A DNA stretch of 64,000 nucleotides from Squalus acanthias (Eukaryota): contig CM059431.1 of the NCBI GenBank assembly GCA_030390025.1, forward strand, positions 126,978,001 through 127,042,000, in the 5' to 3' direction. Below, in pieces: positions 1 to 19,307 of this stretch. The notes below the pieces were generated by a model. That model saw nothing but the letters and a program-made list of their open reading frames with translations. It was not told the origin of the DNA and made no database searches. How positions within the stretch are numbered: position 1 is the first letter of the stretch; every line of letters begins with the position of its first letter. Made by a program: the position numbers and the translations under genes.

Positions 1-539
1 GATCTCCTGACCAACACGTGGGTGCTGCGGTGAAAAACATCCGATCAGCTATTCGGGATTTCTCCGAGTTATTACGAGTGGTGAGCATGAGTCTCGGGAT
101 CCTACGAAGCTAGTTTTAGGATAGTTATTGATAGGGGAGGGTTTAAAGTTTAAGGATATTTGTAATGTGTGCCCTATTTACGTTGTGCTGGTCGTTCCTC
201 GTTTCCCTAAGAGTGATTATAACTGTTTGTAAGATTGTACTGTCATTAATCTGTGCATATGACATGTATTTCATAATTTTAAGTATCATGCAATAAAGAT
301 TTTCCATTTCGTACCGTTCAAACCAAGTCTACATGAGTTTTATCTCCATTACTGCTCTCGCATCTAAGTCCAGTGTCTAGAACCGTAAGGGAGAGTGATT
401 CGAACCACTCACAGGGGTGTCTAGTGTTCCCAGACTGGCTGGAGACCAGGCCTAGACCCGCACTGACATACAGGCTGCACAGAGCCGCGTGAATCTCACA
501 GGCTACGAGACACGCAGGGTCAGGAGAGTATCCCTTACA
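1..539 (+). repeat. 5' LTR (3' part only)
   Basis: Identical by eye to 7671-8209; ends ...CCCTTACA; AATAAA at 292-297. Confidence 0.95.
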
Positions 540-543
540 GAAA

Positions 544-2355
544 ATGGCGACCGCGGCAGGACACTGGCAGCGAGAGGGTAGTGTGTTAGATTTTGGAATG
601 ACTGTACGAAATGTGATGCAGGAAAAGATAGCGGATTACGTATTTGGAAAGGTTAATCTAACGAAAAAGTGGATAAGCGAATTGTTAGCGGATAAGAGCC
701 CACTAGAGGCAGCTGAAAGGTGGACGGATAGTAAGGAGCATAAAAAAGCAGTTGAGAAAGCAGTCTGGCTTATGTGCTACAAAAGGCAGGTTCAGATTTC
801 AAACCAGACCAATACAGCGCTAACCGCTCGAATCAAGCAGTTAGAGGAGGAAATGGAGGAGAAGGTTTCTGGAGGGGAGGCGCTCATTAAGAGTTTAAAT
901 GAGTTACGCCAGGAAAGCCAGGAAGTCTCCAGTTACCTTAAAACAAGGGTAGAGTATCTCGAGTGCCAGATCACTGAAGCAAAATTAAACGAGAGTAGGA
1001 TGAAGGAAAGATGTAACCGTCAAGCTGCCCAGATAAGAACTCAAGAAGAGAGCTTAATGGGGGTTAGGTCGGCGTATAAGTTGGCCCTTGAGGATAAGTT
1101 TCAGGGAGCCGACCATAGCGCCTGCGAAAAAGAGATAGAGAGCCTCAAAAAGGCCGTGAATAATGCGAACGGCATGGTGTGCCTTATTAATCCGTCGGCA
1201 CGCCAGCCGCTAGTAAATGAGAGATTTAGAAATTCCCCACCAAGTAAAGCAGAAGAAGTAGTAGCCAGTGCGCCCTCCGCGCCACCCAGCTATTCAGAAA
1301 CCTGGGTTAGGGAGGAAGCAACGGAAGAAGCAAAAGAGCCCGTTGAAAAGGAGGTAGAAAAGGGATCGTTGTATCCAGTAACGGGGATTAAAAGGGGCCC
1401 AAGCAGAAACGGTGGGGAAGAACCGGGGGATCTCCTCGGACAGCTGGTGTTGCCTCACAGTTCACATCAGCTGAGGGCCATGATAAACCACGTAAGGAAG
1501 CTGACCGAGATAGACGACCCTTCCGTACATTTTAGGGAAGTTGAGCAAGCCGCAGCCATCAACGGCTGCGATGATGGGGAGACAGCAAAAATGCTGCTGT
1601 TCTCTTTAGATAGCTCGGTCCTTCAGTGTCTCTCAGGCGATAGCAAGAGGGGTAATAAAAGTTATGAGGAATTGAAAAATGAGGTCCTAGAAGTAGTGGG
1701 AGCGAACGACGGAGGTCCGTTTGCTAGAGTGGGACAGACAGTGCAGATGGAGGGAGAACCCCCGAAGGTTTTTGCCGACAGGCTGTGGCCAGTATATGAG
1801 CGCAGCTGTCTAGGTGCGCCCGAGCGCGAAGATGTGGAAGGCGCCGCTTTAATTCATTGGCTTAGGTGCATAATAGCCAACAGTTTACCAGCCGTTAGAG
1901 AGCAGGCAAAAGCCTGGTTCGATCCCAATGACCTCAACCTTACGGAAGAGTCGGTCTTGAATCGACTCACGTTAGGTTACCGTAACATAAGGGGTATGGC
2001 AACACGTCCCTTTAAGGGAAGAGTACATGAGGTACGACCCGCAGCCCCGACTCAAAGAGAGTGGCATCAGGAGGGTAATCGCGCCCCACAGGCAAGTAAT
2101 GCCTGTTACGGGTGTGGGAAGACAGGGCACTGGCGCAAGCACTGCAGGAACCCTTGGAAGGATTCCAAGGATAAAAATCCCGCGGTCCGAACCCAGGCGC
2201 CTGTCCCGGCTAAGGAAGCAAAGGCACCCACCTCTCCCGAAGACCTCGAGGCAGTGTTAGGAGTCATGCGCAAGATGGTTTTGAATGCGCGTGGACAGGT
2301 GGCGGTCGCAACCGGCCCCGTAGGTGCCGCAGGACCGTCTAATAGTGCCCCATGA
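544..2355 (+). CDS. gag: Gag polyprotein, 603 aa (alternative start ATG at 598)
   Basis: Intact ORF with a long N-terminal coiled coil, PSAPPSY late motif (1273-1293), capsid-like region (DDPSVHFREVEQAA..., MHR-like QMEGEPPKVFADRL) and a single CCHC knuckle CYGCGKTGHWRKHC (2104-2145). Confidence 0.92.
   Translation: MATAAGHWQREGSVLDFGMTVRNVMQEKIADYVFGKVNLTKKWISELLADKSPLEAAERWTDSKEHKKAVEKAVWLMCYKRQVQISNQTNTALTARIKQLEEEMEEKVSGGEALIKSLNELRQESQEVSSYLKTRVEYLECQITEAKLNESRMKERCNRQAAQIRTQEESLMGVRSAYKLALEDKFQGADHSACEKEIESLKKAVNNANGMVCLINPSARQPLVNERFRNSPPSKAEEVVASAPSAPPSYSETWVREEATEEAKEPVEKEVEKGSLYPVTGIKRGPSRNGGEEPGDLLGQLVLPHSSHQLRAMINHVRKLTEIDDPSVHFREVEQAAAINGCDDGETAKMLLFSLDSSVLQCLSGDSKRGNKSYEELKNEVLEVVGANDGGPFARVGQTVQMEGEPPKVFADRLWPVYERSCLGAPEREDVEGAALIHWLRCIIANSLPAVREQAKAWFDPNDLNLTEESVLNRLTLGYRNIRGMATRPFKGRVHEVRPAAPTQREWHQEGNRAPQASNACYGCGKTGHWRKHCRNPWKDSKDKNPAVRTQAPVPAKEAKAPTSPEDLEAVLGVMRKMVLNARGQVAVATGPVGAAGPSNSAP
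545..562 (+). promoter_or_regulatory. Primer binding site for tRNA-Arg(UCG)
   Basis: TGGCGACCGCGGCAGGAC, 5 nt after the LTR end, is the reverse complement of GTCCTGCCGCGGTCG+CCA, the 3' end of vertebrate tRNA-Arg-TCG as recalled (not database-checked). Confidence 0.85.
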
Positions 2356-2359
2356 CTAG
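2353..2359 (+). promoter_or_regulatory. Putative stop-codon readthrough signal UGA-CUAG
   Basis: The gag stop reads TGA CTA G, and the downstream frame stays open in phase to 3516. Confidence 0.7.
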
Positions 2360-3516
2360 AGCCCACGCAGCCTGCCTACCTGTGTCCTTTTAAAAGACAC
2401 GCACAGGAGGGGGTCTGCGGTGAGGAGGCCAGGTTAAAAGAGCAGGCCTTGCGGGAGGAGAACACCCGCTTAATAGGGAGAATAGATGGGCTGGAAGGGC
2501 AGCTTAGAGAGCAGACCCTACGGGAGGAGAACGCCCGATCAATGGGAAAGTTAGACGTGCTCAGGCTAGAAGAGCAGCTTAGAGAGATAAAAGCAGCCTA
2601 CAGGGTAGCCAAAAGCAGGGAGTATGAGTATTTAAAACAGGATAGAAATCTGCAGCCTCCAGCAGGTGAGATTTCACAGAAACAAGCAGGGGCGGTGGCC
2701 TGTCTTAAGGGAGGGGCCAGACCTGCGAGTGGGGAAGCACAGCCCCAGGTAGGACCACAAGGCACACAGGCAGGCGTAGCAGCTTGCATCAGGGGAAGGG
2801 ACATCCCGGACGATCATGCAGCGTTTTTCTGGAGTTGGGGGTTAGATGACGAGGACCCCAGGGTACCCTGGTCAGATGAGGATAGTGCAGATGAGCATAG
2901 TGATGATGACGGGTGGTTTCAGAGGAACGGTCTGGAAGGATTGGGGCCGCTAGGTAGAGATCCATACGGGGTGGACACACAAGCTGCAGGTCCCGACAGC
3001 AGGAGGAAGGAGCTAGAGGAGGCCGGGCCAGCCGCTATGTGGTTCCCAGAGGTGTGGCCGCCCGCTTTGAACGTCCAGTCCTCAGGGGAGGCAGAGTTCA
3101 CGAGTGAAGGGCCGCCTGCTGGGCCGAGCAGGGCGGGGCCCCGAACTACCAGCCCCGAGGTTAGGGAGGCGGAGTCAGCGGAGGCGGGGCTGGCGCCTGT
3201 GATGGAACCCCAGGTCATCCCGTTGAAGGTCTCGGGACCCGGTCCGTCCGTCACGGAGCCCCCGCCCATAGCAATTCCCCGTAGGTCAAGCAGAGTACCC
3301 CAGCCCAGGAAGATGTGGTCAGGTCCACAGGCTGCCCCAGGGCGTAAGTTTCAGGTTAAGATAACCCGGGTAGAGACAGGCCACATCGAAGCAGTAACAG
3401 GCTGCGGCAGATCAGAGGCAAGGGTCAGCGCAGCAACAGGCTGCGGCAGATCAGAGGGAAGGGTCAGTGCCCTCCCACCGTCGGGAAGAGCTCGCAGCAG
3501 CCTTCTCAGGATTTAA
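2356..3516 (+). CDS. orfX: 386-codon non-enzymatic ORF in the pol position, in frame with gag (predicted 990-aa Gag-X readthrough product)
   Basis: No stop from 2356 to TAA 3514-3516, and no ATG before 2541 (the track's start at 2449 is TTG). Coiled-coil N-part, acidic/Trp patch, Pro-rich low-complexity C-part; no PR/RT/IN motifs. Confidence 0.7.
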   Translation, partial: LEPTQPAYLCPFKRHAQEGVCGEEARLKEQALREENTRLIGRIDGLEGQLREQTLREENARSMGKLDVLRLEEQLREIKAAYRVAKSREYEYLKQDRNLQPPAGEISQKQAGAVACLKGGARPASGEAQPQVGPQGTQAGVAACIRGRDIPDDHAAFFWSWGLDDEDPRVPWSDEDSADEHSDDDGWFQRNGLEGLGPLGRDPYGVDTQAAGPDSRRKELEEAGPAAMWFPEVWPPALNVQSSGEAEFTSEGPPAGPSRAGPRTTSPEVREAESAEAGLAPVMEPQVIPLKVSGPGPSVTEPPPIAIPRRSSRVPQPRKMWSGPQAAPGRKFQVKITRVETGHIEAVTGCGRSEARVSAATGCGRSEGRVSALPPSGRARSSLLRI

Positions 3517-3767: not shown

Positions 3768-3787
3768 CTCATTCTATCTGATCACAG
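3768..3787 (+). promoter_or_regulatory. Candidate env splice acceptor
   Basis: Pyrimidine-rich CTCATTCTATCTGATCACAG ends 13 nt before the env ATG at 3801. Confidence 0.5.
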
Positions 3788-3800
3788 GAACCAAGGAAGG

Positions 3801-6152
3801 ATGGAACGACTCATAGTATTGCTCGCGGCAATCGGATGTGGATTGGCCTATCGGGGCCTCACCAAGGATGTCGTGGTGTTTGGATGTTCCGGGGACACGG
3901 CCCCCATCGCGGTGGATGGGACCGGGAGACGGAAGGCAGAAGGGACCAGCACCTATTTCCACAAGGGAAGGTGGCCAGGATGGCTGGGAACGAACTCAAC
4001 GGAGTATTCCAGCACATCGGGGTTCGCCTACAAAGAGACTTCTTTAATGTGCCCCAAAGTACGGATCATCGCACCCAGGATCAGCGTCACCGTCGGCAAA
4101 CGGATTTGTTTGACCTGCAGTGGGAATGTCCCATTGAGCCGATGGTGGTGGCTGCGAAAGCTGAGCAAAACTATGAGGAACTCTTCGGTTGAGTGGGAGC
4201 GACTGGGTAATAATACCCATCGGACAATTACGGGGACAAACGGACAAGTGAAAGTCTGTTGGGACAAATGGTGGGAACCGGATGAGGGGATTTATGTTTG
4301 TATGTGGGGGTCAAAGTACGTTTGCCCCAAAGGCATCTCCATATTCTTTATTAACCAGTGGCAGGATAACGGACAGGGGATGAGGTGGGATGCGAGCACC
4401 AGGGGGTGCGGAGCCCCATACTCTCCGATCCCAGTAAATGCCACTGAGCTCATTACGCGCCCACGCAAAGCCCCGCCCACGATTCCGGTGGTTGTAACTG
4501 AGGAAGAAGGGTGCCCTAAAACTAGTAAGGGACCCGGGAACGGTTTGGTACTGGTCCCCACAGACCAGATACTATTTCAGGGAGTGCATTACGCGGTGGC
4601 CTCGGTGATTTTAAATCTCACTGAGGTACGGTTACCAGAGTGGTGCCCCAAAAAGACGGAACAGTTGTACCAGGTCCTGTTGACCAAGATGTTCAGGCAA
4701 TTTTACGAGTTTGATTTTGCAGAAATTGATAAGACAAGTTTGTACACCGCACCGCAGGAAGTTTTGGACCAAGTAGGGAGGCAAAGAAGGGGTTTGGTGA
4801 ACGATGCGTTCACTGCTTTTAACACAGGGACATCTGTGGTCAACGCTCTAGACAGTGTGGAGCTGCAGACCCAGATTAATGGTTTAAAAACACAGTTAAA
4901 GGATATTCTCACAGATGAGAATAAAGTGGTAGGGTCGGGTCTGCACGAGGACCAAGCCATGACACTACACTTAAAGGAAATCATAGCAGAGCTGGAGAAA
5001 CATGCGCGTACGGTAAATGCCCTGATTAGGGAAGATCGGAATGCATCCGATCAGGCTGCGCAGAACGAGGTGTGCGTGCTTTACGGGGCGTGGTTACTGG
5101 GCGAGGGCCGCAGTAATTTGGAGGATTTAAAACAAGGTTTGGTCCCGTCCTGGATAAGTAACAAACACCTGCGGGCGCTCCACCCTTTTCAGAACGCATT
5201 AAGTCCGTGCCAGCTCAGGCTAGCTTCAGAAGCTTACCCAGTCCCCGTGGACTGCGGACGTTCAAACCATACTATTATGGGAATAGTATTACGCATGCCG
5301 GTTTTGGGCAACACAGCAAAGCCCGCCCCGGTGTATCGGGTAGAGAACATTGGTGTCATTCAGGGGGGAGCCCACATTCGTTATGCAGCGGTTCCACCTT
5401 ACGTCATCCGCTGGGAGCAAACGATGACAGGTACAGATCTCTCTGGTTGTCGTGGCAGGGGAGCACACATAATACTGTGCCCCCAGCACTTGAATGCCTT
5501 TTTAACACCACAGTGCGGGTTCAGAACGGCTGGCGCCAAGTCCATGAATTGCACCATGGAGGCAATGGCACAAGATCATGTGCCTCCGCAGGTAGCATAC
5601 ATCGGGGGTGGAACATACTGTGTTACCACTGCAGCGCAACACCACCAGCATGGAAACCGTAGCCGGTGTCCGGTGAGTGACAGCAGTTTCTGTTTTAAAC
5701 CCAGGGCTGAAGTTCAAGTAGCACAACAGCGAATTATCCCAATCCCTGAACCATCCACTGTTCATCTCACAGTAAAAGAGAATTTTACCGACTTGCAGCG
5801 ATTTGTCGCACATTTTGGGTACCTCATTCCCCCTCTCCCTGAGCATTTAACCAAACTTCTGAAAGCCGTCGCGGTGTCACAAAAGCATTTTTATACATTA
5901 GAACAGAAAACCGTCGAGATAGGTACAGACATTTTGGACATAGTGGTTCCACCGTGGTGGAATCTGTTCACGAATATTGAAGTGCCCTCATGGGTCAGAA
6001 TAGCCTCCCACATTTTAGTCGTCTGTCAAGTGTTTATTGTAGTATACCTATTGTTCATACATTGTAAAAGAGACAAACGCCTCACCAAGCATGAGAACAC
6101 GGGAGAGTGGCGAGAACGTTACGTGCGCGTGCACGATGAGAGCGCAGTGTAA
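3801..6152 (+). CDS. env: Env-like class I fusion glycoprotein, 783 aa, with N-terminal Ig-like domain (F-protein-like layout)
   Basis: Signal peptide MERLIVLLAAIGCGLA; Ig motif C106...W...DEGIYVC167; furin site RQRR (aa 327-330) then fusion-peptide-like GLVNDAFTAFNTGTSVVNAL and a heptad repeat; Cys-rich ectodomain with N-glycan sequons; TM IASHILVVCQVFIVVYLLFIHC; short tail. Confidence 0.88.
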   Translation: MERLIVLLAAIGCGLAYRGLTKDVVVFGCSGDTAPIAVDGTGRRKAEGTSTYFHKGRWPGWLGTNSTEYSSTSGFAYKETSLMCPKVRIIAPRISVTVGKRICLTCSGNVPLSRWWWLRKLSKTMRNSSVEWERLGNNTHRTITGTNGQVKVCWDKWWEPDEGIYVCMWGSKYVCPKGISIFFINQWQDNGQGMRWDASTRGCGAPYSPIPVNATELITRPRKAPPTIPVVVTEEEGCPKTSKGPGNGLVLVPTDQILFQGVHYAVASVILNLTEVRLPEWCPKKTEQLYQVLLTKMFRQFYEFDFAEIDKTSLYTAPQEVLDQVGRQRRGLVNDAFTAFNTGTSVVNALDSVELQTQINGLKTQLKDILTDENKVVGSGLHEDQAMTLHLKEIIAELEKHARTVNALIREDRNASDQAAQNEVCVLYGAWLLGEGRSNLEDLKQGLVPSWISNKHLRALHPFQNALSPCQLRLASEAYPVPVDCGRSNHTIMGIVLRMPVLGNTAKPAPVYRVENIGVIQGGAHIRYAAVPPYVIRWEQTMTGTDLSGCRGRGAHIILCPQHLNAFLTPQCGFRTAGAKSMNCTMEAMAQDHVPPQVAYIGGGTYCVTTAAQHHQHGNRSRCPVSDSSFCFKPRAEVQVAQQRIIPIPEPSTVHLTVKENFTDLQRFVAHFGYLIPPLPEHLTKLLKAVAVSQKHFYTLEQKTVEIGTDILDIVVPPWWNLFTNIEVPSWVRIASHILVVCQVFIVVYLLFIHCKRDKRLTKHENTGEWRERYVRVHDESAV

Positions 6153-6563: not shown

Positions 6564-6575
6564 AACAGGAGGGAC
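6564..6575 (+). promoter_or_regulatory. Polypurine tract
   Basis: AACAGGAGGGAC immediately precedes the TG start of the 3' LTR. Confidence 0.7.
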
Positions 6576-7141
6576 TGTAGAATTCGCAATTATCGCGATT
6601 TCATTTTTTAATAAGGAGAAAACACAAAGTTTCGTTCAAAACAGCTTTTATTTCAGCGAAATGCTGTCAGGTTTAAATTGGACACAAGCAGCCGGTAAAA
6701 TGGCCGCCGCACCGCGTGACAGAACATTCTAGACTTTTCAGCAGGCAGACAAGATGGCGTTCCAATAAACATTCTTGCAGGATCGATAACGATTCAGCAC
6801 AGTGAAGACAATACACAGGACATTATGGGTTTACAGTATAAACATCGATACTGGAATCGGTCTCCCAGGTACAAAGGAAAGCCATCAAGGGCCCATCCAA
6901 AGGACATTAATATGTAAACTCCCAACGGCTCTACAATGAGAGAGCCGTTAGCAGGTAGTTATACAGGACACTTGGAAGCCCCAAACCCCTCCAGGGGGAA
7001 CACCGACCGATTTAACAATGGGAGAAATATTAACAGGTACTCAAACATTCAGGAGTAGCCCCGAAACCCATTAAGGACAGAGATCACCCATACAGGACTT
7101 TTGGGCGCCAAACCTTAAACAAAAGAATGGACATTGTAGTT

Positions 7142-7173
7142 GGGCGGGAAACGGAAGAACTGTGCACTATAAT
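7142..7173 (+). promoter_or_regulatory. Candidate LTR core promoter (GC box + TATA-like)
   Basis: GGGCGG at 7142-7147 and TATAAT at 7168-7173; CTATAA is kept at the same position in both solo LTRs. Confidence 0.5.
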
Positions 7174-7365
7174 TGCAGGCCCAAACCGTCCATTCGCTCT
7201 CTGGCCTCTTGCTCTTTTGCTCTTGACTCTTGTCGCTTGCTGCTGTTATCATCGTGGCTGCTCCTGTGTTTTATCCGGTCGATTCGTAACCTCGTGGCTG
7301 CTCCTGGGTAAAAGACTGTTGCAAAGACCTATGTTGGTAGCTGGCAGCGGAACCGAAGGCCCGGG

Positions 7366-7395
7366 ATGAGATGAGATGAGATGAGATGAGATGAG
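7366..7395 (+). repeat. (ATGAG)6 microsatellite inside the LTR
   Basis: Seen directly; shorter related runs occur at the same place in both solo LTRs. Confidence 0.9.
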
Positions 7396-7961
7396 AGGAG
7401 AAGAGAAGAAGACCTTATCCATCGCCACGGTCAGTAAATCCCGACCGCGCCTGTAGGTCGATCAGCCAAGTCTTCTCGACAGGAAGTTTTCTTCTTTAAC
7501 AAGACATATTGCATCAATGATAACTGGACTGTGCAAACACATCGTATCAGTGATATTGGCAACGGTGCTCCACGATTTAACTTTGAAGCCCACCAACAGA
7601 GGTCTTCACTACAGCGGACGGTCCAGCCGACTGACCGAGCAGCAGAAGCAGTAAACAAGTGGGACCAGGAGATCTCCTGACCAACACGTGGGTGCTGCGG
7701 TGAAAAACATCCGATCAGCTATTCGGGATTTCTCCGAGTTATTACGAGTGGTGAGCATGAGTCTCGGGATCCTACGAAGCTAGTTTTAGGATAGTTATTG
7801 ATAGGGGAGGGTTTAAAGTTTAAGGATATTTGTAATGTGTGCCCTATTTACGTTGTGCTGGTCGTTCCTCGTTTCCCTAAGAGTGATTATAACTGTTTGT
7901 AAGATTGTACTGTCATTAATCTGTGCATATGACATGTATTTCATAATTTTAAGTATCATGC

Positions 7962-7967
7962 AATAAA
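7962..7967 (+). terminator. LTR polyadenylation signal
   Basis: AATAAA, conserved (as TTTATT on +) in both minus-strand solo LTRs. Confidence 0.7.
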
Positions 7968-8209
7968 GATTTTCCATTTCGTACCGTTCAAACCAAGTCT
8001 ACATGAGTTTTATCTCCATTACTGCTCTCGCATCTAAGTCCAGTGTCTAGAACCGTAAGGGAGAGTGATTCGAACCACTCACAGGGGTGTCTAGTGTTCC
8101 CAGACTGGCTGGAGACCAGGCCTAGACCCGCACTGACATACAGGCTGCACAGAGCCGCGTGAATCTCACAGGCTACGAGACACGCAGGGTCAGGAGAGTA
8201 TCCCTTACA

Positions 8210-10380
8210 GGGCTACTTCCCCTCCTTTTTCATTCTGCCTGTCTTTTCGGAACGTCAAGTACCCTGGAACATTTAGGGGGGAAAATTGAGTCGCGCCCCC
8301 TTTAGGGCATTAATTTCACTGGGGTGCTACTTCTAGTGCCCCGAAAAAAATTAACGCCCCCGCGGCCGAAATTCATCGGTAGCGCCCCAAGAGGGAAGCG
8401 GAGAGCTACTGGAAGCACCCCGCCTCCCTCTTGGGGCGTGCGCTGCGGCACGTCGCGCTGCGCTACTGCAGGCCTTCCTCCCCTTCTTAAAGGGGAGGGG
8501 ACTTGCGCAGCATGAGCCGGGGCCCAGCTGGGCCACCAGGGATCTGAGTGCCGGCAAAAGAGCCCGGCACTCAAGAGAAGTGCCAGGCTCAGGGAGTGCA
8601 GTCAGCACTCTGCGGGGGGGCTGCTCAGGAGGCCGTGGATGGCAACGGGGGCAGGTGCTGGCAGGCGGCCAGCAACAAAAATGGCCGCCCGGCACCTCGC
8701 CTTTAATTAACGCTGTCCCGGCCGCAGGTAGGCCCCCCTGACCCCGTCGGACATAGTGTCCGGCATTAAGTCAGGGGGCACTACCGAAGATCACTGCCAG
8801 GGTGCAAGTGGGGTGCTGCGCATGGCGATGAAGTCATCGCCGGCGACACAGCGCTGTAGGGCGCTAACGGTTACCGTCTTCGCTAACCTCCCGCTGAATT
8901 TTGCAGGAGGCTTTGGCGGTGCCGCGCCCGGGCGCTAGTTGCTTTGCGCCCCGTTAGTGCCCTAGGGCACTAACGGGAGGTGCAAAACAACCAAATTTTT
9001 CCTCCTTAGTTCCCAACCTTGGCCACTTTGCAACCATGTCTCTGTAATGGCTATTAGATCAAACCCATTTATCTCTATTTGTGCCACTATTTCATCTATC
9101 TTGTTACGAATGCTTCGTGTATTCAGATAAAGAGCCTTTAATTTAAATATTTTACCATTATCCCCTGCTTTGACCTTATTCTCTGCTGCACTGCTACCGT
9201 TAAACTCTCTGTCCCTTCCTGTCACACTCTGCTTATTTTTACCCAAATCGCTACACTGCTCTATTGCCTTGACCTTTTGTCTTTAGATTTCTAAATTTCC
9301 CCCCACCTGACCCCTCCACCCGCCTTTTTTAGTTTAAAGCCCTACCTACAGCCCTAGTTATTCGATTCAACAGGACGCTGGTCCCAGCCCGGTTTAAGTG
9401 GAGACCGTCCCGATGGAACAGCTCCCTCTTTTCCCGGTACTGGTGCCAGTGCCCCATGAATTGAAACCCCATTTTCTCACACCACTCTTTGGGCCCTGCA
9501 TTTAACTCTCTGATCTGCTTGACCCTATGCCAATTTACGTGTGGCTCAGGCAGTAATCCAGAGATTATTATCCTTGTTGTTCTGCTTATTAATTTAGACC
9601 CTAGCTCCTCAAACTCCCTCAGCAGAACCTCATTCTTAGTTCTACCTATGTCGTTGGTTCCTACACGGATCACGACAACTGGATCCTCCCCCTCCCACTC
9701 CAAGTTCTTCTCCAGCTGCGAGGAAATATCCTTAACCCTGGCACCGGGCAGGCAACACAGCCTTCGGGACTCTCTTTCGTGGCTGCAGAGAACAGTATCT
9801 ATCCCCCTGACTATACTGCCCCCTACTGCTACCACATTCCTTCCTTCTCCCCGCACTTGGATGGCCCCCTGTACCACAGTGCCATGGTCAGTTTGCCCAT
9901 CCTCCCTACAGTCCTTTTCCTCATCCATACAGGTAGAAAGTACCTCGTACCTGTTGGACAAGGTCCAGGGCTGAGGCTCATCCATCACTACATCCTGGGT
10001 CCCCATACCTGCCTGACTCGCAGTCGCACCCTCCTGTCCCTGATCACTGACGAACTCTAAAGTACTACTTAACCTAAAGGGTGTGACTGCCTCCTGGAAC
10101 AAAGTGTCCAGGTAACTCTCCCCCTCCCTGATGCATTGCAATGTCTACAGCTCGTACTCCAGCTCAACAATTCTGAGCCGAAGTTCCTCGAGTTGCAGAC
10201 ACTTACTGCAGATGTGGTTGCTCGGGATCGCGATGCGTTCCACAGACTCCCACATGCTGCAGTTATGACACAGCCCTGCCCTGCCATCTCAAACCTTGTT
10301 TTATTTATTAATATATTATTTAAAGATTTTATTCAATCGATATTTTAGGTTTATCGTTTGATTATTTTATTTAGTTTAAG
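8210..10380 (-). mobile_element. CR1 LINE 5' part (ORF1 zinc-finger/SGNH esterase, start of APE endonuclease), interrupted by the provirus and a MITE
   Basis: ORF 9329-10141 has esterase motifs (GGSIVRGID, CLPGARVKD, VGTNDIG, DGLHLN). APE motif YLNTRSIRNK...IAITETWL is in 9009-9246 and continues at 8210-8275. Confidence 0.88.
8276..9005. mobile_element. PIF/Harbinger-type MITE, family A copy 1
   Basis: GG(G/A)GGAAAA(A)TT termini, TTA TSD (8273-8275 / 9006-9008), GC/CpG-rich; inverted copy at 20972-21710. Confidence 0.8.
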
Positions 10381-11862: not shown

Positions 11863-13886
11863 GGCCTAGAAATTCCACATCGCAAAAAACCTGCCGGTGC
11901 CACCGTGGGCCAGTGTTAACGGCCGCTGAAATTAATGGTGCTGGCAGGACTGGTAAATTGGTGCTGGTGGCTAATTAACATCAGCCCAGCAGTAAACTTA
12001 CCATGCAAGGCCGCTCTGGCAGTGTTAGTCTCAGCAGGAGGCCCCAATTTAGTGTGGCAATAGTGTCAGTGCAGCAAGAACAGATTTCTCTTAAAGCAAG
12101 GCTGTCATTTCAGAAAGTAGTTTGGTCCCTCAAAGGGGAACTGCCTTCTGAAATGAAAAAAATTAAAATCATGCAAAAATAGGCAGTTTTTAGCCCTTAG
12201 AGCACAACTGCCTTCTGAAAAAAAAAATTACATTAAAAAAGATTCCCAAATTTAAGTCTTCAGCTCTTAAGGCTGAATTGCGTTCCGCACTTAAAAAAAT
12301 GCTAAAAGTGCTTCAGCACTAACACAAATGGCTCAACAAGCCAAGGAATGGGCTCCCAGGATCTCGCAAGCAGCACTTTAGCTTTGTACAGGGGGTTAAC
12401 ACTGCAAGTGAGGTCCTCTACCCACAGGGGCCAGGAGGCCCTCCAGAAAGAATGATGTGGGAGTAGATCACCGAGGTCGTCACTGCCAGCAGTTTTAACC
12501 CCATGACCTTGCACCAGTGCGTAAAGAAGCTTCATGACCTCAGACCAGTGGTCAAGGTCAGTCAATGCATCTTGAAAAGCCATCTCCTACCAACTGCACC
12601 ACTAGCCTCACACACTGCTCAATACATGACCGCTCCCCCTGCCCCCGTAATCACTCATCTACCAACAATCTTTACCAAACACAAGGCACACCTCCCATTC
12701 CTAGCTTCACCTTGGATGAGACAGTGCTGGCAATTTTTGGTAGAGGCATAGCTGAGCCCTTGGCCAGTGGCGGAGCTGAAAGGATACAAGATGCTGGTAT
12801 CCTCATACATTATCCTCCTTCTTGCATGCATCTCTTGCTTTCCCGTCCTCCCCTCACCACAACTCTACCCTTGTGCCTTCCTCATTTCACACACCCAAGA
12901 AATGCAGCCTGCCCAGTCAGTGGTTGACCATGAAGAGGGAGAGGTAGCACTGCATGACATCAATAGGACAGGCAAAGTCACACACAAGACAGTCAGTAAT
13001 GCATAAGGGTGATTAGTTGATTTCTTGATGTTACATTGGATGGATAGATGTATAAAGTTGGATTGGAAATTTTTCTTTGTGATGGCTTTTATTTCAGCAT
13101 TGTGGCCAAGAGGACACAGTGATGGTCAGTAACAGAGGGAAGGTAAGCTTTGAGACTCATGTTGAAAGGGGAATTGGGGTTGTGGTCACTGGCACCACAG
13201 GCGGATGATTCCATCCCAGATATCCCGTCTCTGGGTTGCATCTTTCCTTCTGCTTCCTCCTCTTCTGCTTCCTCCTCTTCTGCGTCTTCCTCTTCCCTTT
13301 GCGAGTGGATGCTGTAAATCTGAAATAAAAGCATAAAATGCTGGAAATACTCAGCAGGTCAGGCAGCATCTCGACCTGAGACGTGAACTCTATTTCTCTC
13401 TCCACAGATGCTGCCTGACCTGCTGAGTATTTCCAGCATTTTCTGTCTTCTCAGAGGCCTTCCTTTACCATCCGAGGTCTTGCAAGTGTCCAGCAGTGCT
13501 CCTTGCACTCCCTGCACACTTAAAAAATCTTTCAGCATGTAATGCACCAAGCCATTACTTCAATAAAATATAAAAAATCCAGACCAAAACTTGAATGCAA
13601 ACTTAACTGAAAGATGTGTGTATCCCATTAAGAAGTGCTGACAGGTCTCTGTTAATCTGCTTTACGCTCACTTATCAGAGAGAGCTTTGGACCCAGCACT
13701 AAGGTCCAAATTCACAGAACATTTCGTTAAGCTCCACATTTGCATCTCCAGGGCCAATGCTAAGCCCCTCACCAAAGTGGCAGCCGCCGAGTCCCACACC
13801 AGAGAAGGGCGTTAGAGTGGTGGCCGCCATTTTTTGCCAGAATTGCGGCGCTAACTCGTAGCGTTAAGGTTGGGAATTTCTAGGCC
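11863..13886. mobile_element. Non-autonomous Harbinger element
   Basis: Perfect 14-bp TIR GGCCTAGAAATTCC and AGA TSD. Myb/SANT remnant (QCVKKLHDL) on +, acidic transposase-tail remnant on -. Confidence 0.82.
13325..13447. repeat. Palindromic Penelope-type terminal repeat remnant
   Basis: Inverted arms AAAATGCTGGAAATACTCAGCAGGTCAGGCAGCATCT / AGATGCTGCCTGACCTGCTGAGTATTTCCAGCATTTT; same family as 28418-28518. Confidence 0.65.
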
Positions 13887-15151
13887 AGAAACTTCAATAA
13901 TATCCCATCTAAGCTTACATTTTTCCAAAGTAACTTATAAGTCCACAAGATTCACACCATAATTAAGAGCTCTATCACCTAGGCTGGGAATTTTCTCAGA
14001 ACTGCTTCCGCTCTGCTGTCGTACCTTTACATAGAAACATAGAAACATAGAAGATAGGAGCAGGAGTAGGCCATTTGGCCCCTTGAGCCTGCTCCGCCAT
14101 TCGATGAGATCATGGCTGATCATCCAAACTCAGTACCCTGTACCTGCCTTCACCCCATATCCCTTGATACCTTTAGCTTTAAGAAATATATCTAACTCAT
14201 TCTTGAATATATTTAATAACTTGGCCTCAACTACCTTCTGTGGTAAAGAATTCCACAGGTTCACCACTCTCTGGGTGAAGAAATTCTTCCTAATTTCTGT
14301 CCTAAATGGCTTACCCCTTAACCTTAGATTATGACCCCTGGTTCTGGACTCTCCGACCATCGGGAACATTCTTCCTGCATCTAGTTTGTCCAGACCTGTC
14401 AGAATTTTATATGTTTCGATGAGATTCCCTCTCATTCTTCTATACTCCAGCGAGTATAAGCCCAATCGACCCAATCTCTCCTCATATGTCATTCCTGCCA
14501 TCCCAGGTATCAGCCTTGTGAATCTTCGCTGAACTCCTTCCATGGCAAGAACATCCTTCCTCAGATAAGGCGACCAAAACTGCACACAGTACTCAAGGTG
14601 TGGTCTCACCAAGGCTCTGTACAACTGCAGCAGGACATCCCTGTTCCTATACTCAAACCCTTTCGCTATGAAGGCCAACAAACCATTTGCCTTCTTCACC
14701 GCCTGCTGCACCTGCATGCTTACCTTCACCGACTGGTGCACAAGGACACCCAGGTCTCGTTGCACTTCCCCTTCTCCCAATCTATTACCATTCAGATAAT
14801 AGTCTGCCTTTCTGTTTTTGACACCAAAGTGGATAACCTCGCATGTATCCACGTTATATTGCATCTGCGACGCTTCTGCCCACTCACCCAACCTGTCCAA
14901 ATAAGAACATAAGAACATAAGAACATAAGAAATAGGAGCAGGAGTAGGCCAATCGGCCCCTCGAGCCTGCTCCGCCATTCAATAAGATCATGGCTGATCT
15001 GATCCTAACCGCCAATCTACTATCTATCACAGAACCATCTCCTGCATCTAACAGAATTGCACATACGAAATAGGAGCAGAATCAGGCTACACGGTCCCTG
15101 GGCCCGCTCCACTACCCACAGGACCATGACCGATCCGAACCTAGACTCATG

Positions 15152-18097
15152 TCAAATTCCTGCCCGCTCCCCGTAACCCTTAATGCCCTTTACTTCTAGG
15201 AAACTGTCTATTTCTGTTTTAAATTTATTTAATGATGTAGCTTCTACAGCTTTTTGTGGCAGCATATTCCATGGACCTACCACCCTCTGAGTGAAGTAGT
15301 TCCTCCTCATCTCAGTTTTGAAAGAGCAGCCCCTTATTCTAAGACTATGTCCCCTAGTTCTAGTCTCACCCGTCATCGGGAACATCCTCCCCGCATCCAC
15401 CCGATCCAACCCCTTCACAATCTTATATGTTTCAATAAGATCGCCTCTCATTCTTCTGAACTCCAATGAGTAGAGTCCCAATCTACCCAACCTCTCCTCA
15501 TATGACCACCCCCTCATCCCCGGAATTAACCAAGTGAACCTTTTTTGCACTGCCTCGAGAGCAAGGATGTCTTTCCTTAATTAAGGACACCAAAACTGTA
15601 TGCAGTATTCCAGGTGCGGTCTCACCAATACCTTGAACAACTGAAGCAATACCTCCCTATTTTTATATTCTATCCCCCTAGCAATGAAAGCCAACATTCC
15701 ATTTGCCTTCTTAATCACTTGCTGCACCTGCATACTAACCTTTTGAGTTTCGTGCACCAGGACCCCCAGATCCCTTTGCACTTCAGTACTCTCCAGTTTC
15801 TTGCCATTAAGATAATAAATTGCTCTAGGATTTTTCCTGCCAAAGTGCATCTCCTCACACTTTCCAGTGTTGTATTCCATCTGCCAAATCTCTGCCCACT
15901 TACTTAGCCTGTCTATGTCCCCTTGCAAGTTTTTTATGTCCTCCTCACTCACTACTTTCCCTCCCATCTTTGTATCATCTGCAAATTTTGATATGTTACA
16001 CTTGGTCCCTTCCTCCAAATCGTTAATATAGATTGTAAAGAGTTGGGGACCCAGCACTGACCCCTGTGGAACACCACTAGTTACTGATTGCTAGTCTGAG
16101 AATGAACCATTTATCCCAACTCTTTGCTTTCTGTTAGATAGCCAATCCTCTATCCATGCCAGAATATTACCCCCAATCCCGTGATTTTTTACCTTAAGCA
16201 ATAATCTTTTGTGTGGCACCTTGTCAAATGCCTTTTGGAAGTCTAAATACACTACATCCACTGGTTCCCCTTTATCCACTCTATATGTTACTTCCTCAAA
16301 GAACTCCAGCAAATTTGTCAAACATGCCTTCCCCTTCGTAAAACCATGCTGACTTTGTCCTATTAAATTATGATTATCCAAATGTCCTGTTACTGTTTCC
16401 TTAATAATGGACTCCAAAATTTTACCTAACACAGATGTTAGGCTAACCGGTCTATAGTTACCAGCCTTCTGTCTACTGCCCTTTTTAAATAAGGGTGTTA
16501 CATTAGCAGTTTTCCAGTCTGCCGGGACCTTAGCGGAATCCAGGGAGTTTTGAAAAATTATTACCAATGCATCTACAATCCCTACCACCACTTCCTTCAA
16601 GACTCTAGGATGTAAGCCATCAGGTCCAGGTGATTTATCCGCCTTGAGTCCCATTATTTTACCGAGTACCACTTCCTTAGTGATTTTGATCGTGTTTAGC
16701 TCCTCTCCCCCTATAGCCCCCTGTTTGTCCAGTGTTGGGATATTCTTAGTGTCCTCTACTGTAAAGACTGATACAAAATATTCATTCAGTGTTTTTGCCA
16801 TCTCCATATTTCCCACCATTAATTTCCCGGTCTCATCCTCTAAGGGACCAACATTTACTTTAGCCACCCTTTTTCTTTTTATATAACTATAAAAACTCTT
16901 ACTATCTGTTTTTATATTTTTTGCTAATTTACTTTCATAATCTATCTTCCCTTTCTTAATCAATCTTTTTGTTATTTTTTGCTGCCTTTTAAAGTTTTCC
17001 CAATCCTCTGTCCTCCCACTAGATTTCGCTACCTTATATGCCCTTGTTTTTAGTCGAATACTATCCTTAATTTCTTTACTTAGCCACGGATGACTGTCCT
17101 TTCTTTTACACCCTTTTCTTTTCAGTGGAATATATTTTTTTTGGAAGTTGTAAAATAACTCCTTGAATGTACACCACTGATCATGTGTCGTCTTACCCTT
17201 TAATCTATTTTCCCAATCCACTCTACTCAATTCCGCTCGCATACCTTCATAGTCTCCTTTATTCAAGCTTAGCACGCTTGTTTGAGATCCAAACTTCTCA
17301 CCCTCTAATTGAATATGGAATTCAACCATGTTATGGTCACTCATTCCAAGGGGATCCTTTACTAGGACATTTTTAATTAATCCTGTCTCGTTACACAGGA
17401 CCAGATCTAAGGTTGCTTGCCCCCTGGTTGGTTCAGTTACATACTGCTCAAGAAACCCATCCCTAATACACTCAATGAACTCATCCTCAAGGCAGCCCTG
17501 CCCCATTTGATTTGTCCAATTAATATGATAGTTAAAATCCCCCATAATTATAGATGTTCGCTTATTACATGCCTCAACTATTTCCTGATTGATACTCCGT
17601 CCAACAGAGTTGCAACTGTTCGGAGGCCTATAGACTACGCCCACTAGTGTTTTTTTCCCCTTATTATTCCTTATCTCCACCTAAACTGTTTCATTATCAT
17701 GATTTTTTGACCCAATATCATTACTCTGTATTACAGTGATTCCTTCCTTTATTAACATAGCCACCCCACCTCCCCTTCCTTCCTGCCTGTCCTTCCTGAT
17801 CGTTAAATATCCTGGTATGTTTAATTCCCAGGCATTGTCACCCTGCAGCCATGTTTCTGTAATGGCCACAATATCATAACCATATGTAATTATTTGTGTC
17901 ATTAACTCGTCTATTTTGTTACCAATGCTACGTGCATTCAGATAGAGAACTTTCAAATATGCTTTGTGGCACTTAGTTCCTGCTTTTTCACTTTTTACCA
18001 CTTTACCTTTTACTCCACACACTCTGTCCCTTCCTGCCATGCTCTGATTTGTGATTCCCCTACTGCTACCTATGTCTATGACCCTCTCTGTTGTCAT
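15152..18097 (-). pseudogene. CR1 ORF2 (APE endonuclease + reverse transcriptase), three in-frame stops and no frameshift
   Basis: ORF pieces with upper coordinates 18097, 17680, 16057 and 15550 share one frame. Motifs AITETWL, MGDFN, SDHN, YLDFQKAFD, LGPQLF, KFADD. Confidence 0.92.
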
Positions 18098-18168
18098 TTT
18101 TATTTTTTGCTCTCTTGAAACCTCCCCCCCACTAATTAGTTTAAAGCCCTCTCCACAGCCCTAGTTAT

Positions 18169-19092: not shown

Positions 19093-19307
19093 TCTATGTA
19101 ATTAATTAAAAATTTATTATTTACCCTTCAGTTAATTTATGCAGCAGTCTCCGCTACACCACAGATACCCGAGAAACTATAAACTATGGAATTGAAGTTT
19201 TGTATAAAAAAAAGAGAAATACTCACCAACCAATCACTTACCTGCTTTCTGGTGACGTCACACTTCGATTATTTTTTACCTCTCTCCTGCTCTCGGCTTG
19301 GTGAAAG

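What the first reader, a model, noticed from the sequence alone, without database searches (positions are those of the whole stretch)
4050..4360. Immunoglobulin-like domain fused to the N-terminus of the viral fusion protein
Seen: ISVTVGKRICLTC(106)...WWW...DEGIYVC(167) has the B-strand Cys, C-strand Trp and DxGxYxC signature with 61-residue Cys spacing. It lies between the signal peptide and a Pro/Thr-rich linker (PRKAPPTIPVVVT). Known: paramyxo/pneumovirus F proteins normally work with a separate attachment protein. Inference: a captured host Ig module supplies receptor binding or immune modulation on the same chain.
Basis: partly seen in the sequence, partly recalled or inferred. Interest (0 to 1): 0.7.

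Follow-up and report, generated by a model that had tools for sequence, protein, structure and literature searches.

The report
Ig-like head on a fish retroviral envelope
A very young, many-copy endogenous retrovirus in a cartilaginous-fish genome encodes an envelope protein whose outer part most likely folds like an immunoglobulin domain and probably serves to bind the host cell, a feature not described for this kind of envelope.

Summary
The 783-aa ORF at 3801-6152 (+) carries C106, W115-117 and D161-x-G-x-Y-x-C167 (nt about 4053-4370). This signature occurs once in 127,996 six-frame residues and in 7 of 20,000 shuffles.

The ORF is not a paramyxovirus F. It is the env of an LTR provirus, with 1.64-kb LTRs 99.8% alike, a GGGC target duplication and a CCHC gag. 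This copy lacks pol. At least 57 near-identical intact env copies lie in the genome.

Support for an Ig fold is consistent but weak:
- Ig_3/V-set are the only recurring Pfam hits, all below cut-off.
- The AlphaFold model is all-beta but has low confidence (pLDDT 50-59).

The domain is under purifying selection, and its predicted loops vary more than its strands. No host donor is detectable.

Relatives in sharks, skates, frogs and coelacanth share the fusion core. Most carry a different-looking Ig-like N-terminal module.

Best reading: the domain is the receptor-binding head of an F-like or foamy-like class I Env. Capture from a host, if it happened, is ancient and unproven.

The parts
1..539 (+). 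3' part of the 5' LTR. The LTR starts about 1.1 kb before the window and ends in ..CA.
   Evidence: Window coordinates -1099..540 align with 6570..8210 at 99.8% (2 mismatches and 1 gap in 1641). The TG..CA ends were seen.
81..82 (+). Candidate splice donor (GT) for the env mRNA
   Evidence: One contig of run X1 joins 79/80 to 3787/3788 with GT..AG ends. Depth is 36 and the shorter side is 25 nt. The sequence context G|GTGAGC is shown. The run's RNA status is only a guess.
544..2355 (+). gag ORF: N-terminal coiled coil, capsid-like middle, CCHC zinc knuckle at 2104-2145, stop codon at 2353-2355
   Evidence: Translation; coordinates. Weak nucleocapsid matches in PDB (E 0.13). The zf-CCHC Pfam family is matched in sibling gags.
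2356..2729 (+). Stretch standing where pro-pol should be. It has the first residues of pro, then a gag-like coiled-coil piece.
   Evidence: The sequence after the gag stop matches the start of pro in a sibling locus. No RT, RNase H or IN is found by Pfam. Six of 11 sibling copies instead have an integrase C-terminus joined at about 2730.
2730..3516 (+). Acidic, Pro-rich open frame that follows integrase in the full-length siblings. Function unknown.
3786..3787 (+). Candidate splice acceptor (AG), 13 nt before the env ATG
3801..6152 (+). env ORF, 783 aa plus stop
   Evidence: All 57 scored genomic matches are 99-100% identical in protein and have no stop.
3801..3848 (+). Signal peptide (aa 1-16)
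   Evidence: Hydrophobic N-terminus read from the sequence. This is an inference; no predictor was run.
3849..4052 (+). Conserved N-terminal region (aa 17-84) of unknown fold, with the motif G-R-W-P-G-W-L-G-x-N-S-T
   Evidence: Alignment A3. Not modelled by AlphaFold, with block-mean pLDDT 21-44.
4053..4370 (+). Ig-like domain (aa 85-190): B strand with C103-x-x-C106, C strand W115-117, E strand with C153, F strand D161-x-G-x-Y-x-C167, then C175
   Evidence: Motif. Sub-threshold Ig_3 hits. All-beta model and Ig-domain structural matches. Conserved strands and variable loops.
4371..4505 (+). Variable linker (aa 191-235) including the Pro/Thr-rich stretch at 4461-4499
   Evidence: It has among the highest entropies (1.09) of the N-terminal part, and 40-60% identity between subfamilies.
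4506..4790 (+). N-terminal piece of the fusion core (aa 236-330). It starts with the family-wide motif C-P-x4-G-P-x-x-G-L (4512-4547) and ends in the furin site RQRR (4779-4790).
   Evidence: The distant full-length relatives listed start to align with the query at aa 221-237. The motif is found in 7 of 7 full-length homologues from 6 sequence lineages.
4791..6149 (+). Membrane-anchored fusion subunit (aa 331-783): fusion peptide 4791-4850, heptad region A about 4854-5036, Cys-rich beta core about 5073-5693, heptad region B about 5832-5948, TM helix 5994-6065, short tail
   Evidence: Coordinates and heptad count. One profile hit to foamy-virus Env TM, not reproduced with a second alignment.
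6576..8209 (+). 3' LTR (TG..CA), preceded by a purine-rich tract and followed by GGGC. The same four bases precede the 5' LTR, giving a target-site duplication.

Best explanation
The stretch encodes an immunoglobulin-like beta-sandwich domain (aa about 85-190) in the surface subunit of a retroviral envelope glycoprotein. The Env belongs to a very young, high-copy endogenous retrovirus of a cartilaginous fish.

Architecture of the Env:
- signal peptide
- 68-aa conserved region
- Ig-like domain
- variable Pro/Thr-rich linker
- N-terminal piece of the fusion core
- furin site RQRR
- fusion peptide
- heptad repeat A
- about 200-aa Cys-rich beta region
- heptad repeat B
- TM helix and short tail

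Proposed mechanism (inferred): the precursor trimerises and is cut by furin. The Ig-like domain sits at the membrane-distal periphery on its flexible linker and binds a host cell-surface molecule through its more variable BC and C'-C'' loops. Binding, or a later trigger, releases the F-like fusion subunit.

What is shown: the motif, the domain limits, the conservation pattern and the proviral context.

What is inferred: the fold (about 0.8), the receptor-binding role (about 0.6), and the origin of the module. The module is an old, fast-evolving part of this Env lineage rather than a recent host capture.
For: Motif: it is unique in the window and rare in shuffles.

Pfam:
- Of 44 family members scanned one by one, Ig_3 is the only family hit by more than one member among the 25 most-hit families shown, of 44 matched. 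It is hit by 6 members, best E 0.0085.
- On N-terminal segments alone, Ig-clan hits appear in 5 of 7: A 1.2, B 0.018, C 0.0055, bamboo-shark P0013 0.11, P0036 V-set 0.0021.

PDB sequence searches give Ig domains as the main hits, all with E above 0.05:
- JAM-A and an antibody VL
- an scFv
- basigin in 6 of 9 hits
- antibody VH in 6 of 9 hits for P0013

Other leads: UniRef names P0013 'Ig-like domain-containing protein'. ESM-Atlas features give Ig families in 9 of 10 and 10 of 10 of the best named hits, with scores 0.83-0.90, which is a lead only.

AlphaFold2 on aa 17-235 with 9 sequences places eight beta strands at aa 93-189, including the expected B, C, E and F strands.

Fold searches with that model:
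- Foldseek against PDB: all 50 listed rows are antibody, TCR, VNAR, NITR or embigin-type chains, E 0.011-0.036.

Selection:
- Between subfamilies A and B, synonymous sites are saturated (pS 0.74) while pN in the domain is 0.225.
- Predicted strands have pN/pS 0.09-0.18 against 0.32-0.40 in loops.
- Entropy is lowest in strands B, C, E and F and highest in the BC loop and aa 121-131.

Context: LTRs, target duplication and gag. A sibling provirus has PR-RT-tether-RNase H-IN.

Precedent for the layout: the MLV receptor-binding domain is an N-terminal Ig-like fold followed by a proline-rich region (passages of bioRxiv 10.1101/2023.10.07.561363). The F scaffold is said to accept receptor-binding modules at its N terminus or as an insertion (passages of PMC11468914).
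Against: - No Ig-family HMM reaches Pfam's gathering score (10-19 bits against 23.7-30).
- Two frog N-terminal segments gave no Pfam hit.
- Profiles of the close homologues found no Ig chain in PDB at E <= 10.
- P0067 found nothing in PDB.
- The AlphaFold model is poor: mean pLDDT 40.4, pTM 0.41, no residue above 70.
- Foldseek found 0 matches at E <= 0.001.
- Antibody chains are very numerous in PDB, so any small beta sandwich tends to hit them.
- Nothing here tests receptor binding.
- Profile-profile comparison does not link the N-terminal modules of different lineages: 10 of 10 pairs have probability <= 3%. An ancestral Ig module is therefore not shown.
Confidence: 0.6

Rival explanations
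1. The signature is a chance look-alike in a Cys- and Trp-rich beta domain that is not an Ig fold. It could be a lineage-specific receptor-binding fold, like the novel fold of the foamy-virus receptor-binding domain.
Against: The full pattern appears in 7 of 20,000 shuffles. Ig is the only recurring Pfam family. Near-complete coverage of the Ig_3 profile (positions 5-74 of 78) is in register with the Cys, Trp and Y-x-C residues. The listed structural matches are nearly all Ig domains covering most of a domain. Independent, very divergent relatives also give Ig hits.
Confidence: 0.13
2. The domain is Ig-like but is not the receptor binder. It might act as a cap that holds the pre-fusion trimer, as a glycan or antibody shield, or as an immune-modulating decoy, while another part of the surface subunit binds the receptor (aa 17-84 or the region after C175).
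For: The 68-aa region before the domain is also conserved. The domain shows purifying rather than diversifying selection overall. Two N-glycan sequons lie in it, at N127 and N137.
Against: The domain is the largest foldable module outside the fusion core. Its variability concentrates in loops at one end, as in binding domains. The layout matches N-terminal receptor-binding domains of other Envs.
Confidence: 0.2
3. One reading: a host Ig-superfamily exon was captured fairly recently by this virus.
For: The classical IgSF sequence signature suggests a cellular origin in the end. Basigin, embigin and TREM-type domains are among the weak best matches.
Against: No host protein is among the 49 hits of the exhaustive search, and all eight hits that cover the N-terminal part are Env fragments. 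The domain is shared, at 44-75% overall identity to the window's Env, by Env copies of skate, sawshark and whale shark, and by a second subfamily in this genome whose synonymous sites are saturated against the first. It is therefore old.
Confidence: 0.05
4. The ORF is a domesticated host gene (a co-opted env) rather than part of a mobile or infectious element.
For: The frame is intact, purifying selection is strong, and a spliced transcript is possible.
Against: There are at least 57 scored copies at 99-100% identity among 12,904 first-look candidates, on many contigs. This copy has LTRs 99.8% alike and a target-site duplication. Gag is next to it, and siblings have integrase.
Confidence: 0.02

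Closest known systems
Lokiretrovirus Env (Wang and Han 2020, PMC7947760; abstract and passages read)
   Same: It is the Env of a retrovirus-like element of lower vertebrates with a signal peptide, furin-type site, fusion peptide, coiled coil and TM, and a long fusion subunit unlike canonical retroviral TM. The pol has the tether plus a second RNase H. The Gag is about 600 aa with an N-terminal coiled coil, similar in size to the 617-aa Gag of the zebrafish lokiretrovirus BHIKHARI (preprint passage). Relatives occur in amphibians and a lobe-finned fish.
   Different: No hmmscan hit to PF00523 in any of the members scanned, whereas the paper reports E 2.2e-7 for its Env. The paper's text mentions neither cartilaginous fishes nor an immunoglobulin domain. 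No published loki sequence was in my tree, so membership is untested.
Foamy-virus Env gp130 and the class Ib fusion proteins (paramyxo/pneumovirus F, coronavirus spike) as defined in PMC11468914 (passages read)
   Same: It has a long membrane-anchored subunit (453 aa, about 400 in the ectodomain) with two heptad regions around a Cys-rich beta region, plus a piece of the surface subunit that belongs to the conserved core. One family profile hit foamy-virus Env TM: 8ozh_A at E 1.1e-4, 8rm1_D at 0.0024, 8rm0_A at 0.011. The receptor-binding module is added to the scaffold as a separate unit.
   Different: The hit was not reproduced with a second alignment. This Env has a short signal peptide, not the membrane-spanning leader peptide of foamy viruses. 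Its module is N-terminal as in coronavirus spike, not inserted. Its Gag has a CCHC knuckle, whereas from memory foamy-virus Gag has none. The fold of the core could not be tested, because the second structure job was not accepted.
Receptor-binding domain of MLV-type gammaretroviral Env (Ig-like L-shaped fold, PDB 1AOL, followed by a proline-rich region; passages of bioRxiv 10.1101/2023.10.07.561363)
   Same: An N-terminal Ig-like module is followed by a Pro-rich linker and then the conserved part of the surface subunit. A CXXC motif is present in the surface subunit (C103-L-T-C106).
   Different: The fusion subunit is of another type, with no CX6CC motif. This domain carries the classical IgSF sequence signature, whereas from memory the MLV domain is called Ig-like on structure alone. 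No sequence similarity was found.
Cellular V/I-type Ig domains (TREM-1, TREM2, NKp44, basigin/embigin, antibody V domains)
   Same: They are the best structural and weak sequence matches. The Cys-Trp-Cys core and the D-x-G-x-Y-x-C motif are shared.
   Different: Identity is 9-22%. All scores are below family thresholds. Extra cysteines (C84, C103, C153, C175) are not part of the standard pattern. No orthologous host gene was identified.

Membership tests
Immunoglobulin superfamily domain (Pfam Ig clan: Ig_3, V-set, I-set) | Two cysteines on strands B and F, about 55-75 residues apart | tested here: met
   C106 and C167 are 61 residues apart. Both are conserved in the close homologues, apart from one fragment (P0026) that has F at the C106 position and does not reach C167.
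Immunoglobulin superfamily domain (Pfam Ig clan: Ig_3, V-set, I-set) | Invariant Trp on strand C and the D-x-G-x-Y-x-C motif on strand F | tested here: met
   W115-117 and D161-E-G-I-Y-V-C167. Entropy is 0.15 for aa 114-120 and 0.50 for aa 161-169.
Immunoglobulin superfamily domain (Pfam Ig clan: Ig_3, V-set, I-set) | HMM score at or above the family's gathering score | tested here: not met
   The window's Env scores Ig_3 at E 0.037-1.2 and 10-15 bits against a cut-off of 30. The best in the whole family are V-set at 18.7 bits (cut-off 26) and Ig_3 at 17.6 bits. The domain is therefore called Ig-like and is not filed as a proven IgSF member.
Immunoglobulin superfamily domain (Pfam Ig clan: Ig_3, V-set, I-set) | Two-sheet beta sandwich with Ig strand order | tested here: inconclusive
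Class Ib (F-like) fusion glycoproteins, including foamy-virus Env | Signal peptide, furin site directly before a hydrophobic fusion peptide, two heptad regions, C-terminal TM | tested here: met
   RQRR at aa 327-330 is followed by the fusion peptide. In the heptad regions, 10 of 18 and 9 of 11 a/d positions are hydrophobic. The TM helix is aa 732-755.
Class Ib (F-like) fusion glycoproteins, including foamy-virus Env | Sequence or profile similarity to F (PF00523), Baculo_F or foamy-virus Env | tested here: inconclusive
   No PF00523 or foamy Env Pfam hit in any member. One chimeric relative hits Baculo_F at E 0.0011. Profile A1 hits foamy-virus Env at E 1.1e-4, but profile A4 does not at E <= 1.
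Class Ib (F-like) fusion glycoproteins, including foamy-virus Env | Three-domain core to which both subunits contribute | not tested
   The full-length structure job was not accepted.
Lokiretroviruses | Pol with a tether (degenerate RNase H) plus a second RNase H | tested here: met
   A sibling provirus has RVT_1, RT_RNaseH_2, RNase_H, Integrase_H2C2 and rve. The window copy itself lacks pol.
Lokiretroviruses | RT groups with published lokiretroviruses in a phylogeny | not tested
   The quick tree of 22 pol proteins places it with frog and coelacanth sequences (support 99), apart from bird ERVs and Ty3/gypsy. No loki reference was available.
Gamma-type retroviral Env | CX6CC motif in TM paired with CXXC in SU | tested here: not met
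   There is no C-x6-C-C anywhere in the protein. One CXXC (C103-C106) is present in SU.
Spumaretrovirus (foamy virus) Env | Long leader peptide with its own membrane span, cleaved by furin | tested here: not met
   The window's Env has a 16-residue signal peptide. Two frog relatives do show an N-terminal hydrophobic span followed by R-x-K-R.

The most novel reading that the evidence does not exclude
This Env lineage uses true IgSF domains as exchangeable receptor-binding heads on an F-like fusion scaffold. Different viral lineages in sharks, skates and frogs would have swapped in or re-acquired unrelated host Ig modules at the same position, just before the conserved C-P-x4-G-P-x-x-G-L motif. 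A head derived from a host adhesion or immune receptor of the basigin or TREM type may bind that receptor's own natural partner. If so, this would be a retroviral counterpart of the modular spike of coronaviruses, and a case of repeated host-to-virus domain capture in Env. The family is also young, has very many copies, and keeps env under purifying selection.
Probability: 0.2. Interest if true: 0.8.

Novelty: new variant of a known kind. Interest (0 to 1): 0.55.

Why it matters
Receptor-binding parts of retroviral envelopes outside mammals and birds are almost unknown. Published surveys of fish and amphibian envelopes that I read in passages deal with gamma-type Envs. The lokiretrovirus papers describe only the fusion part.

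An Ig-type head on an F-like or foamy-like scaffold would add a third way of attaching a receptor binder to this scaffold. The other two are N-terminal galectin-like or other domains in coronavirus spike, and an inserted novel fold in foamy viruses.

It would also give a handle for finding the receptor of a retrovirus family that has been active very recently in cartilaginous fishes.

My searches found no paper holding both 'lokiretrovirus' and 'immunoglobulin'. Three other searches gave none relevant among their top listings. The held library lacks most subscription journals, including the J Virol 2023 paper on cartilaginous-fish foamy viruses, so prior description cannot be excluded.

Tried and rejected
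Structure and fold searches
- A full-length structure prediction (alignments A1 and A4) was not accepted. Only the N-terminal job ran.
- BFVD fold search found nothing useful: E >= 0.015 and mostly low probability.

Sequence and profile searches that gave nothing
- A3 profile against PDB: no Ig hit. The top hits were zinc fingers brought in by a chimeric gene model in the alignment.
- P0067 against PDB: 0 hits.
- hhalign between the N-terminal modules of different lineages: not significant, with probability <= 3% in 10 of 10 pairs and 1.3% for the pooled comparison.
- A4 profile against PDB did not reproduce the foamy-virus hit.
- Viral contigs and metagenome-contig scans: no relative found. 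A4 was too divergent for that tool.
- tblastn of env, gag and the middle ORF against the window: only self matches.
- A sigma-70 promoter scan of the LTR is irrelevant for a vertebrate element.

Sequencing runs
- No RNA holder is listed. The runs labelled 'RNA?' are guesses.
- Parts without cover in run X9 carry no meaning.

Genome copies
The synonymous/non-synonymous count therefore rests on 12 copies picked by protein score.

Errors of mine
- One search failed on saturated synonymous sites and was redone.
- read minus-strand loci in the wrong orientation and was redone.
- One search failed on a missing anchor and was redone.

Leads considered and dropped
- Basigin as donor: it appears only for subfamily C, at E 0.15-0.82.
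- The Ig signature as domain II of the F core: that domain lies in the C-terminal subunit, whereas the signature lies before the conserved core motif.
Full report
**What is there**

The window is vertebrate DNA. It holds LINE-type endonuclease and reverse-transcriptase ORFs and GDSL-esterase ORFs on the minus strand. It lies in a 3.7-Gb assembly.

The finding lies in a 783-aa ORF at 3801-6152 on the plus strand.

The short motif D.G.Y.C and the full Cys-Trp-motif pattern each occur once in the 127,996 residues of the six-frame translation of the window. In 20,000 shuffles of the protein they occurred 44 and 7 times. One detail needs correcting: a conserved 68-residue region (aa 17-84) separates the signal peptide from the domain.

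**Context: a provirus, not an RNA-virus F gene**

- Bases 1-540 are identical to 7671-8210.
- With 4 kb fetched upstream, the repeats extend to 1.64 kb: window -1099..540 against 6570..8210. They are 99.8% identical, with 2 mismatches and 1 gap in 1641.
- They begin with TG and end with CA, and are flanked by GGGC on both sides.
- The ORF after the 5' LTR is a Gag with an N-terminal coiled coil and one CCHC knuckle.
- After the gag stop come the first residues of a protease frame. Then comes a gag-like coiled-coil piece and an acidic, Pro-rich frame. No RT, RNase H or integrase is present.

Sibling copies show what is missing here. Of 11 other copies with near-identical env, 6 have an integrase C-terminus (77-79% identical to that of a second subfamily) joined at about window position 2730. 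The other 5 share the pol-less form.

A provirus of the second subfamily has protease, RT, tether-type RNase H, a second RNase H and integrase upstream of its env. That pol finds MLV-type RT-RNase H (E 1e-67) and foamy-virus PR-RT (1e-62) ahead of Ty3 (1e-43) and HIV (1e-15) in PDB.

Its nearest full-length relatives are frog and coelacanth gene models at 38-41% identity. In a quick tree these form a clade with support 99, apart from bird ERVs and Ty3/gypsy. No lokiretrovirus reference was in the tree.

**Copy number and age**

- A protein search of the assembly scored 57 places out of 12,904 first-look candidates. All 57 are 99-100% identical to the window's Env and free of stops.
- A DNA search scored 40 places out of 3,921 candidates, all at 99-100%.
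- Among 12 copies, 39 sites of the 2,352-nt env vary. Of these, 36 are synonymous and 3 are not, where 23% of random changes would be synonymous. These copies were picked by protein score, which biases the count.
- None of the 39 variable sites lies in codons 1-190.
- A second subfamily (B/C) is 68-70% identical in protein.
- Between the subfamilies, synonymous sites are saturated (pS about 0.74). In the domain, pN is 0.21-0.23.

One contig of a run whose RNA status is only a guess joins position 79/80 in the LTR to 3787/3788, 13 nt before the env ATG, with GT..AG ends. This is what a spliced env mRNA would look like. It is a single contig with a 25-nt shorter side.

**Is the domain an Ig fold?**

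Sequence tests agree with each other, but none is significant.

- Pfam gives the window's Env Ig_3 at E 0.037 to 1.2. The alignment covers profile positions 5-74 of 78 over aa 88-167.
- The same region of subfamilies B and C gives E 0.018 and 0.0055.
- A bamboo-shark relative gives Ig_3 and Ig_2 at 0.11.
- A very divergent relative (P0036) gives V-set at 0.0021.
- Two frog segments give nothing.
- When all 44 members of the family alignment were scanned singly, Ig_3 was hit by 6 members. Every other family among the 25 shown was hit by one member.
- All scores (10-19 bits) are below the gathering scores (23.7-30).

Because the Ig families were the hypothesis set in advance, the library-wide E-values overstate the number of tests. 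This is an argument, not a computed value.

PDB sequence searches list Ig domains as their main hits, all with E above 0.05:
- JAM-A and an antibody VL
- an scFv
- basigin in 6 of 9 hits
- antibody VH in 6 of 9 hits for the bamboo-shark protein

A profile of the close homologues found none. UniRef's automatic name for the bamboo-shark protein is 'Ig-like domain-containing protein'. ESM-Atlas features point to Ig families at scores of 0.83-0.90, which the tool rates as leads only.

**Structure**

The one job that was accepted folded aa 17-235 with nine sequences.

- The model is poor overall: mean pLDDT 40.4 and pTM 0.41.
- Residues of aa 94-176 reach a pLDDT of only 50-59.
- In this region the model has strands at aa 93-96, 101-107, 115-120, 132-135, 141-146, 149-155, 161-169 and 183-189. 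These are the positions expected for strands A', B, C, C'/D, E, F and G from the motif.
- Foldseek against PDB found no match at E <= 0.001. The 50 rows listed (E 0.011-0.036) are antibody, TCR, VNAR, NITR or embigin-type chains.

**Conservation pattern**

- Over 20 distinct N-terminal sequences of the close group, entropy is lowest in the predicted B, C, E and F strands and in W-D-K-W-W (0.15-0.58).
- Entropy is highest in the BC loop (1.25), in aa 121-131 (1.07) and in the linker after the domain (1.09).
- pN/pS is 0.09 in the modelled strands and 0.32 in the rest within subfamily B/C. Between subfamilies the values are 0.18 and 0.40.

The domain is thus a constrained, folded unit whose loops are freer. 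There is no sign of overall positive selection.

**Relatives**

- The exhaustive HMMER search found 49 proteins at E <= 0.001.
- I looked up 20 of them. They come from skate, sawshark, whale shark, bamboo shark, catshark, houndshark, horn shark, sevengill shark, frogs (Pelodytes, Mantella, Xenopus) and coelacanth.
- Distant full-length relatives align with the query only from aa 221-237 onward. All 7 examined, representing 6 sequence lineages, carry the motif C-P-x4-G-P-x-x-G-L at the start of the shared core.
- Before this motif each lineage has its own module of about 150-235 residues. The close shark and skate group, the bamboo-shark protein and two frog proteins show a Cys..Trp..Cys pattern with 58-69 spacing. 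Two proteins (P0036, P0067) show a V-set-like pattern without the cysteines. The houndshark protein shows no clear pattern.
- Profile comparisons do not link these modules to each other. Fast divergence of one old module and repeated replacement therefore both remain open.
- None of the eight hits that cover aa 1-235 is a host protein.

**The fusion part**

- The membrane-anchored subunit is 453 aa, with about 400 in the ectodomain.
- It has a furin site directly before a hydrophobic peptide, two heptad regions around a region with ten cysteines, and a TM helix.
- There is no CX6CC motif, so it is not a gamma-type Env.
- No member hits PF00523 or a foamy-virus Env model.
- One chimeric relative hits Baculo_F at E 0.0011.
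- A profile of alignment A1 hit foamy-virus Env TM in PDB: 8ozh_A at E 1.1e-4, 8rm1_D at 0.0024 and 8rm0_A at 0.011.
- A profile of alignment A4, which adds the second subfamily and drops chimeric models, did not hit it at E <= 1.

The link to the F-like class Ib proteins of PMC11468914 (passages) is therefore probable from the architecture but not established. That paper states that the F scaffold can take receptor-binding modules at its N terminus or as an insertion. This Env would be of the first kind.

**Comparison with the known, and novelty**

- The closest described group is the lokiretroviruses, whose Env was reported to resemble F proteins. That paper's text mentions no cartilaginous fish and no Ig domain.
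- The MLV receptor-binding domain is an N-terminal Ig-like fold followed by a proline-rich region. The layout has a precedent there, on an unrelated fusion subunit.
- Surveys of anamniote envelopes that I read in passages treat gamma-type Envs only.
- No paper in the held library contains both 'lokiretrovirus' and 'immunoglobulin'.
- Two earlier notes of this scan on other copies in the same genome reached the same reading. They are not independent evidence.

I rate the finding a new variant of a known kind.

**Verdict**

The Ig fold is probable but rests on weak, concordant evidence. The receptor-binding role is inferred. Host capture is unproven and, if real, ancient.

Noticed in passing
window 544-3516 and sibling loci L002-L012: The window's provirus lacks pol. 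Five of 11 sibling copies with near-identical env share this pol-less form, and 6 of 11 have an integrase C-terminus joined at about 2730. A non-autonomous gag-plus-env derivative has therefore spread alongside full-length elements.
   Followed up: partly
window 3801-6152 against L002-L012: Among 12 copies, 36 of 39 variable env sites are synonymous, and none lies in codons 1-190. Fourteen synonymous sites cluster in codons 236-346. This suggests env was needed during spread, that is reinfection rather than retrotransposition, and perhaps recombination. It is unusual for a high-copy ERV family. The copies were picked by protein score, which biases the count.
   Followed up: partly
L024 against L025 (subfamilies B and C): Synonymous divergence is 0.09-0.14 in the signal peptide to Ig part but 0.34-0.43 in the fusion part. 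This points to a mosaic env made by recombination between lineages.
   Followed up: no
window 79-82 and 3786-3788: One contig in coded run X1 joins the LTR leader to 13 nt before the env ATG with GT..AG ends. In that run, depth over env is about three times that over gag. This is a possible spliced env mRNA. The run's RNA status is a guess.
   Followed up: partly
(runs X1-X14): Runs under six coded organism labels hold about half or more of the sampled 31-mers of this env (0.45-0.77). Near-identical env therefore occurs under several labels. The cause could be recent spread, close kinship of hosts or slow evolution.
   Followed up: no
proteins P0020 and P0047 (frogs), residues about 1-80: Their Envs start with a short charged stretch. 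P0020 then has a hydrophobic span. In both, an R-x-K-R site precedes the Ig-like module. This resembles the membrane-spanning, furin-cleaved leader peptide of foamy-virus Env (PMC11468914 passage).
   Followed up: no
window 4107-4118: The B-strand sequence C103-L-T-C106 is a CXXC motif conserved in the close group. In gamma-type Envs a CXXC in SU controls the SU-TM disulfide, but here no CX6CC partner exists. C103-C153 and C84-C175 might instead be extra disulfides within the domain. That is inference only.
   Followed up: no
window 46473-47981 and 52668-54214 (minus strand): Fragments are 77-83% identical to the LTR and to the region just before the 3' LTR of this provirus. They are older relatives or solo LTRs.
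   Followed up: no
window 9329-10144, 14130-19101, 23453-24355, 44001-45113 (minus strand): There are several LINE-type ORFs: GDSL-esterase-like ORF1 and endonuclease/reverse-transcriptase ORF2.
   Followed up: no
window 2439-2561 and 13332-13445: A 54-nt direct repeat (76% identical, 69 nt apart) lies in the coiled-coil piece that replaces pol. Elsewhere, a 40-nt inverted repeat is 98% complementary with a 34-nt spacer.
   Followed up: no
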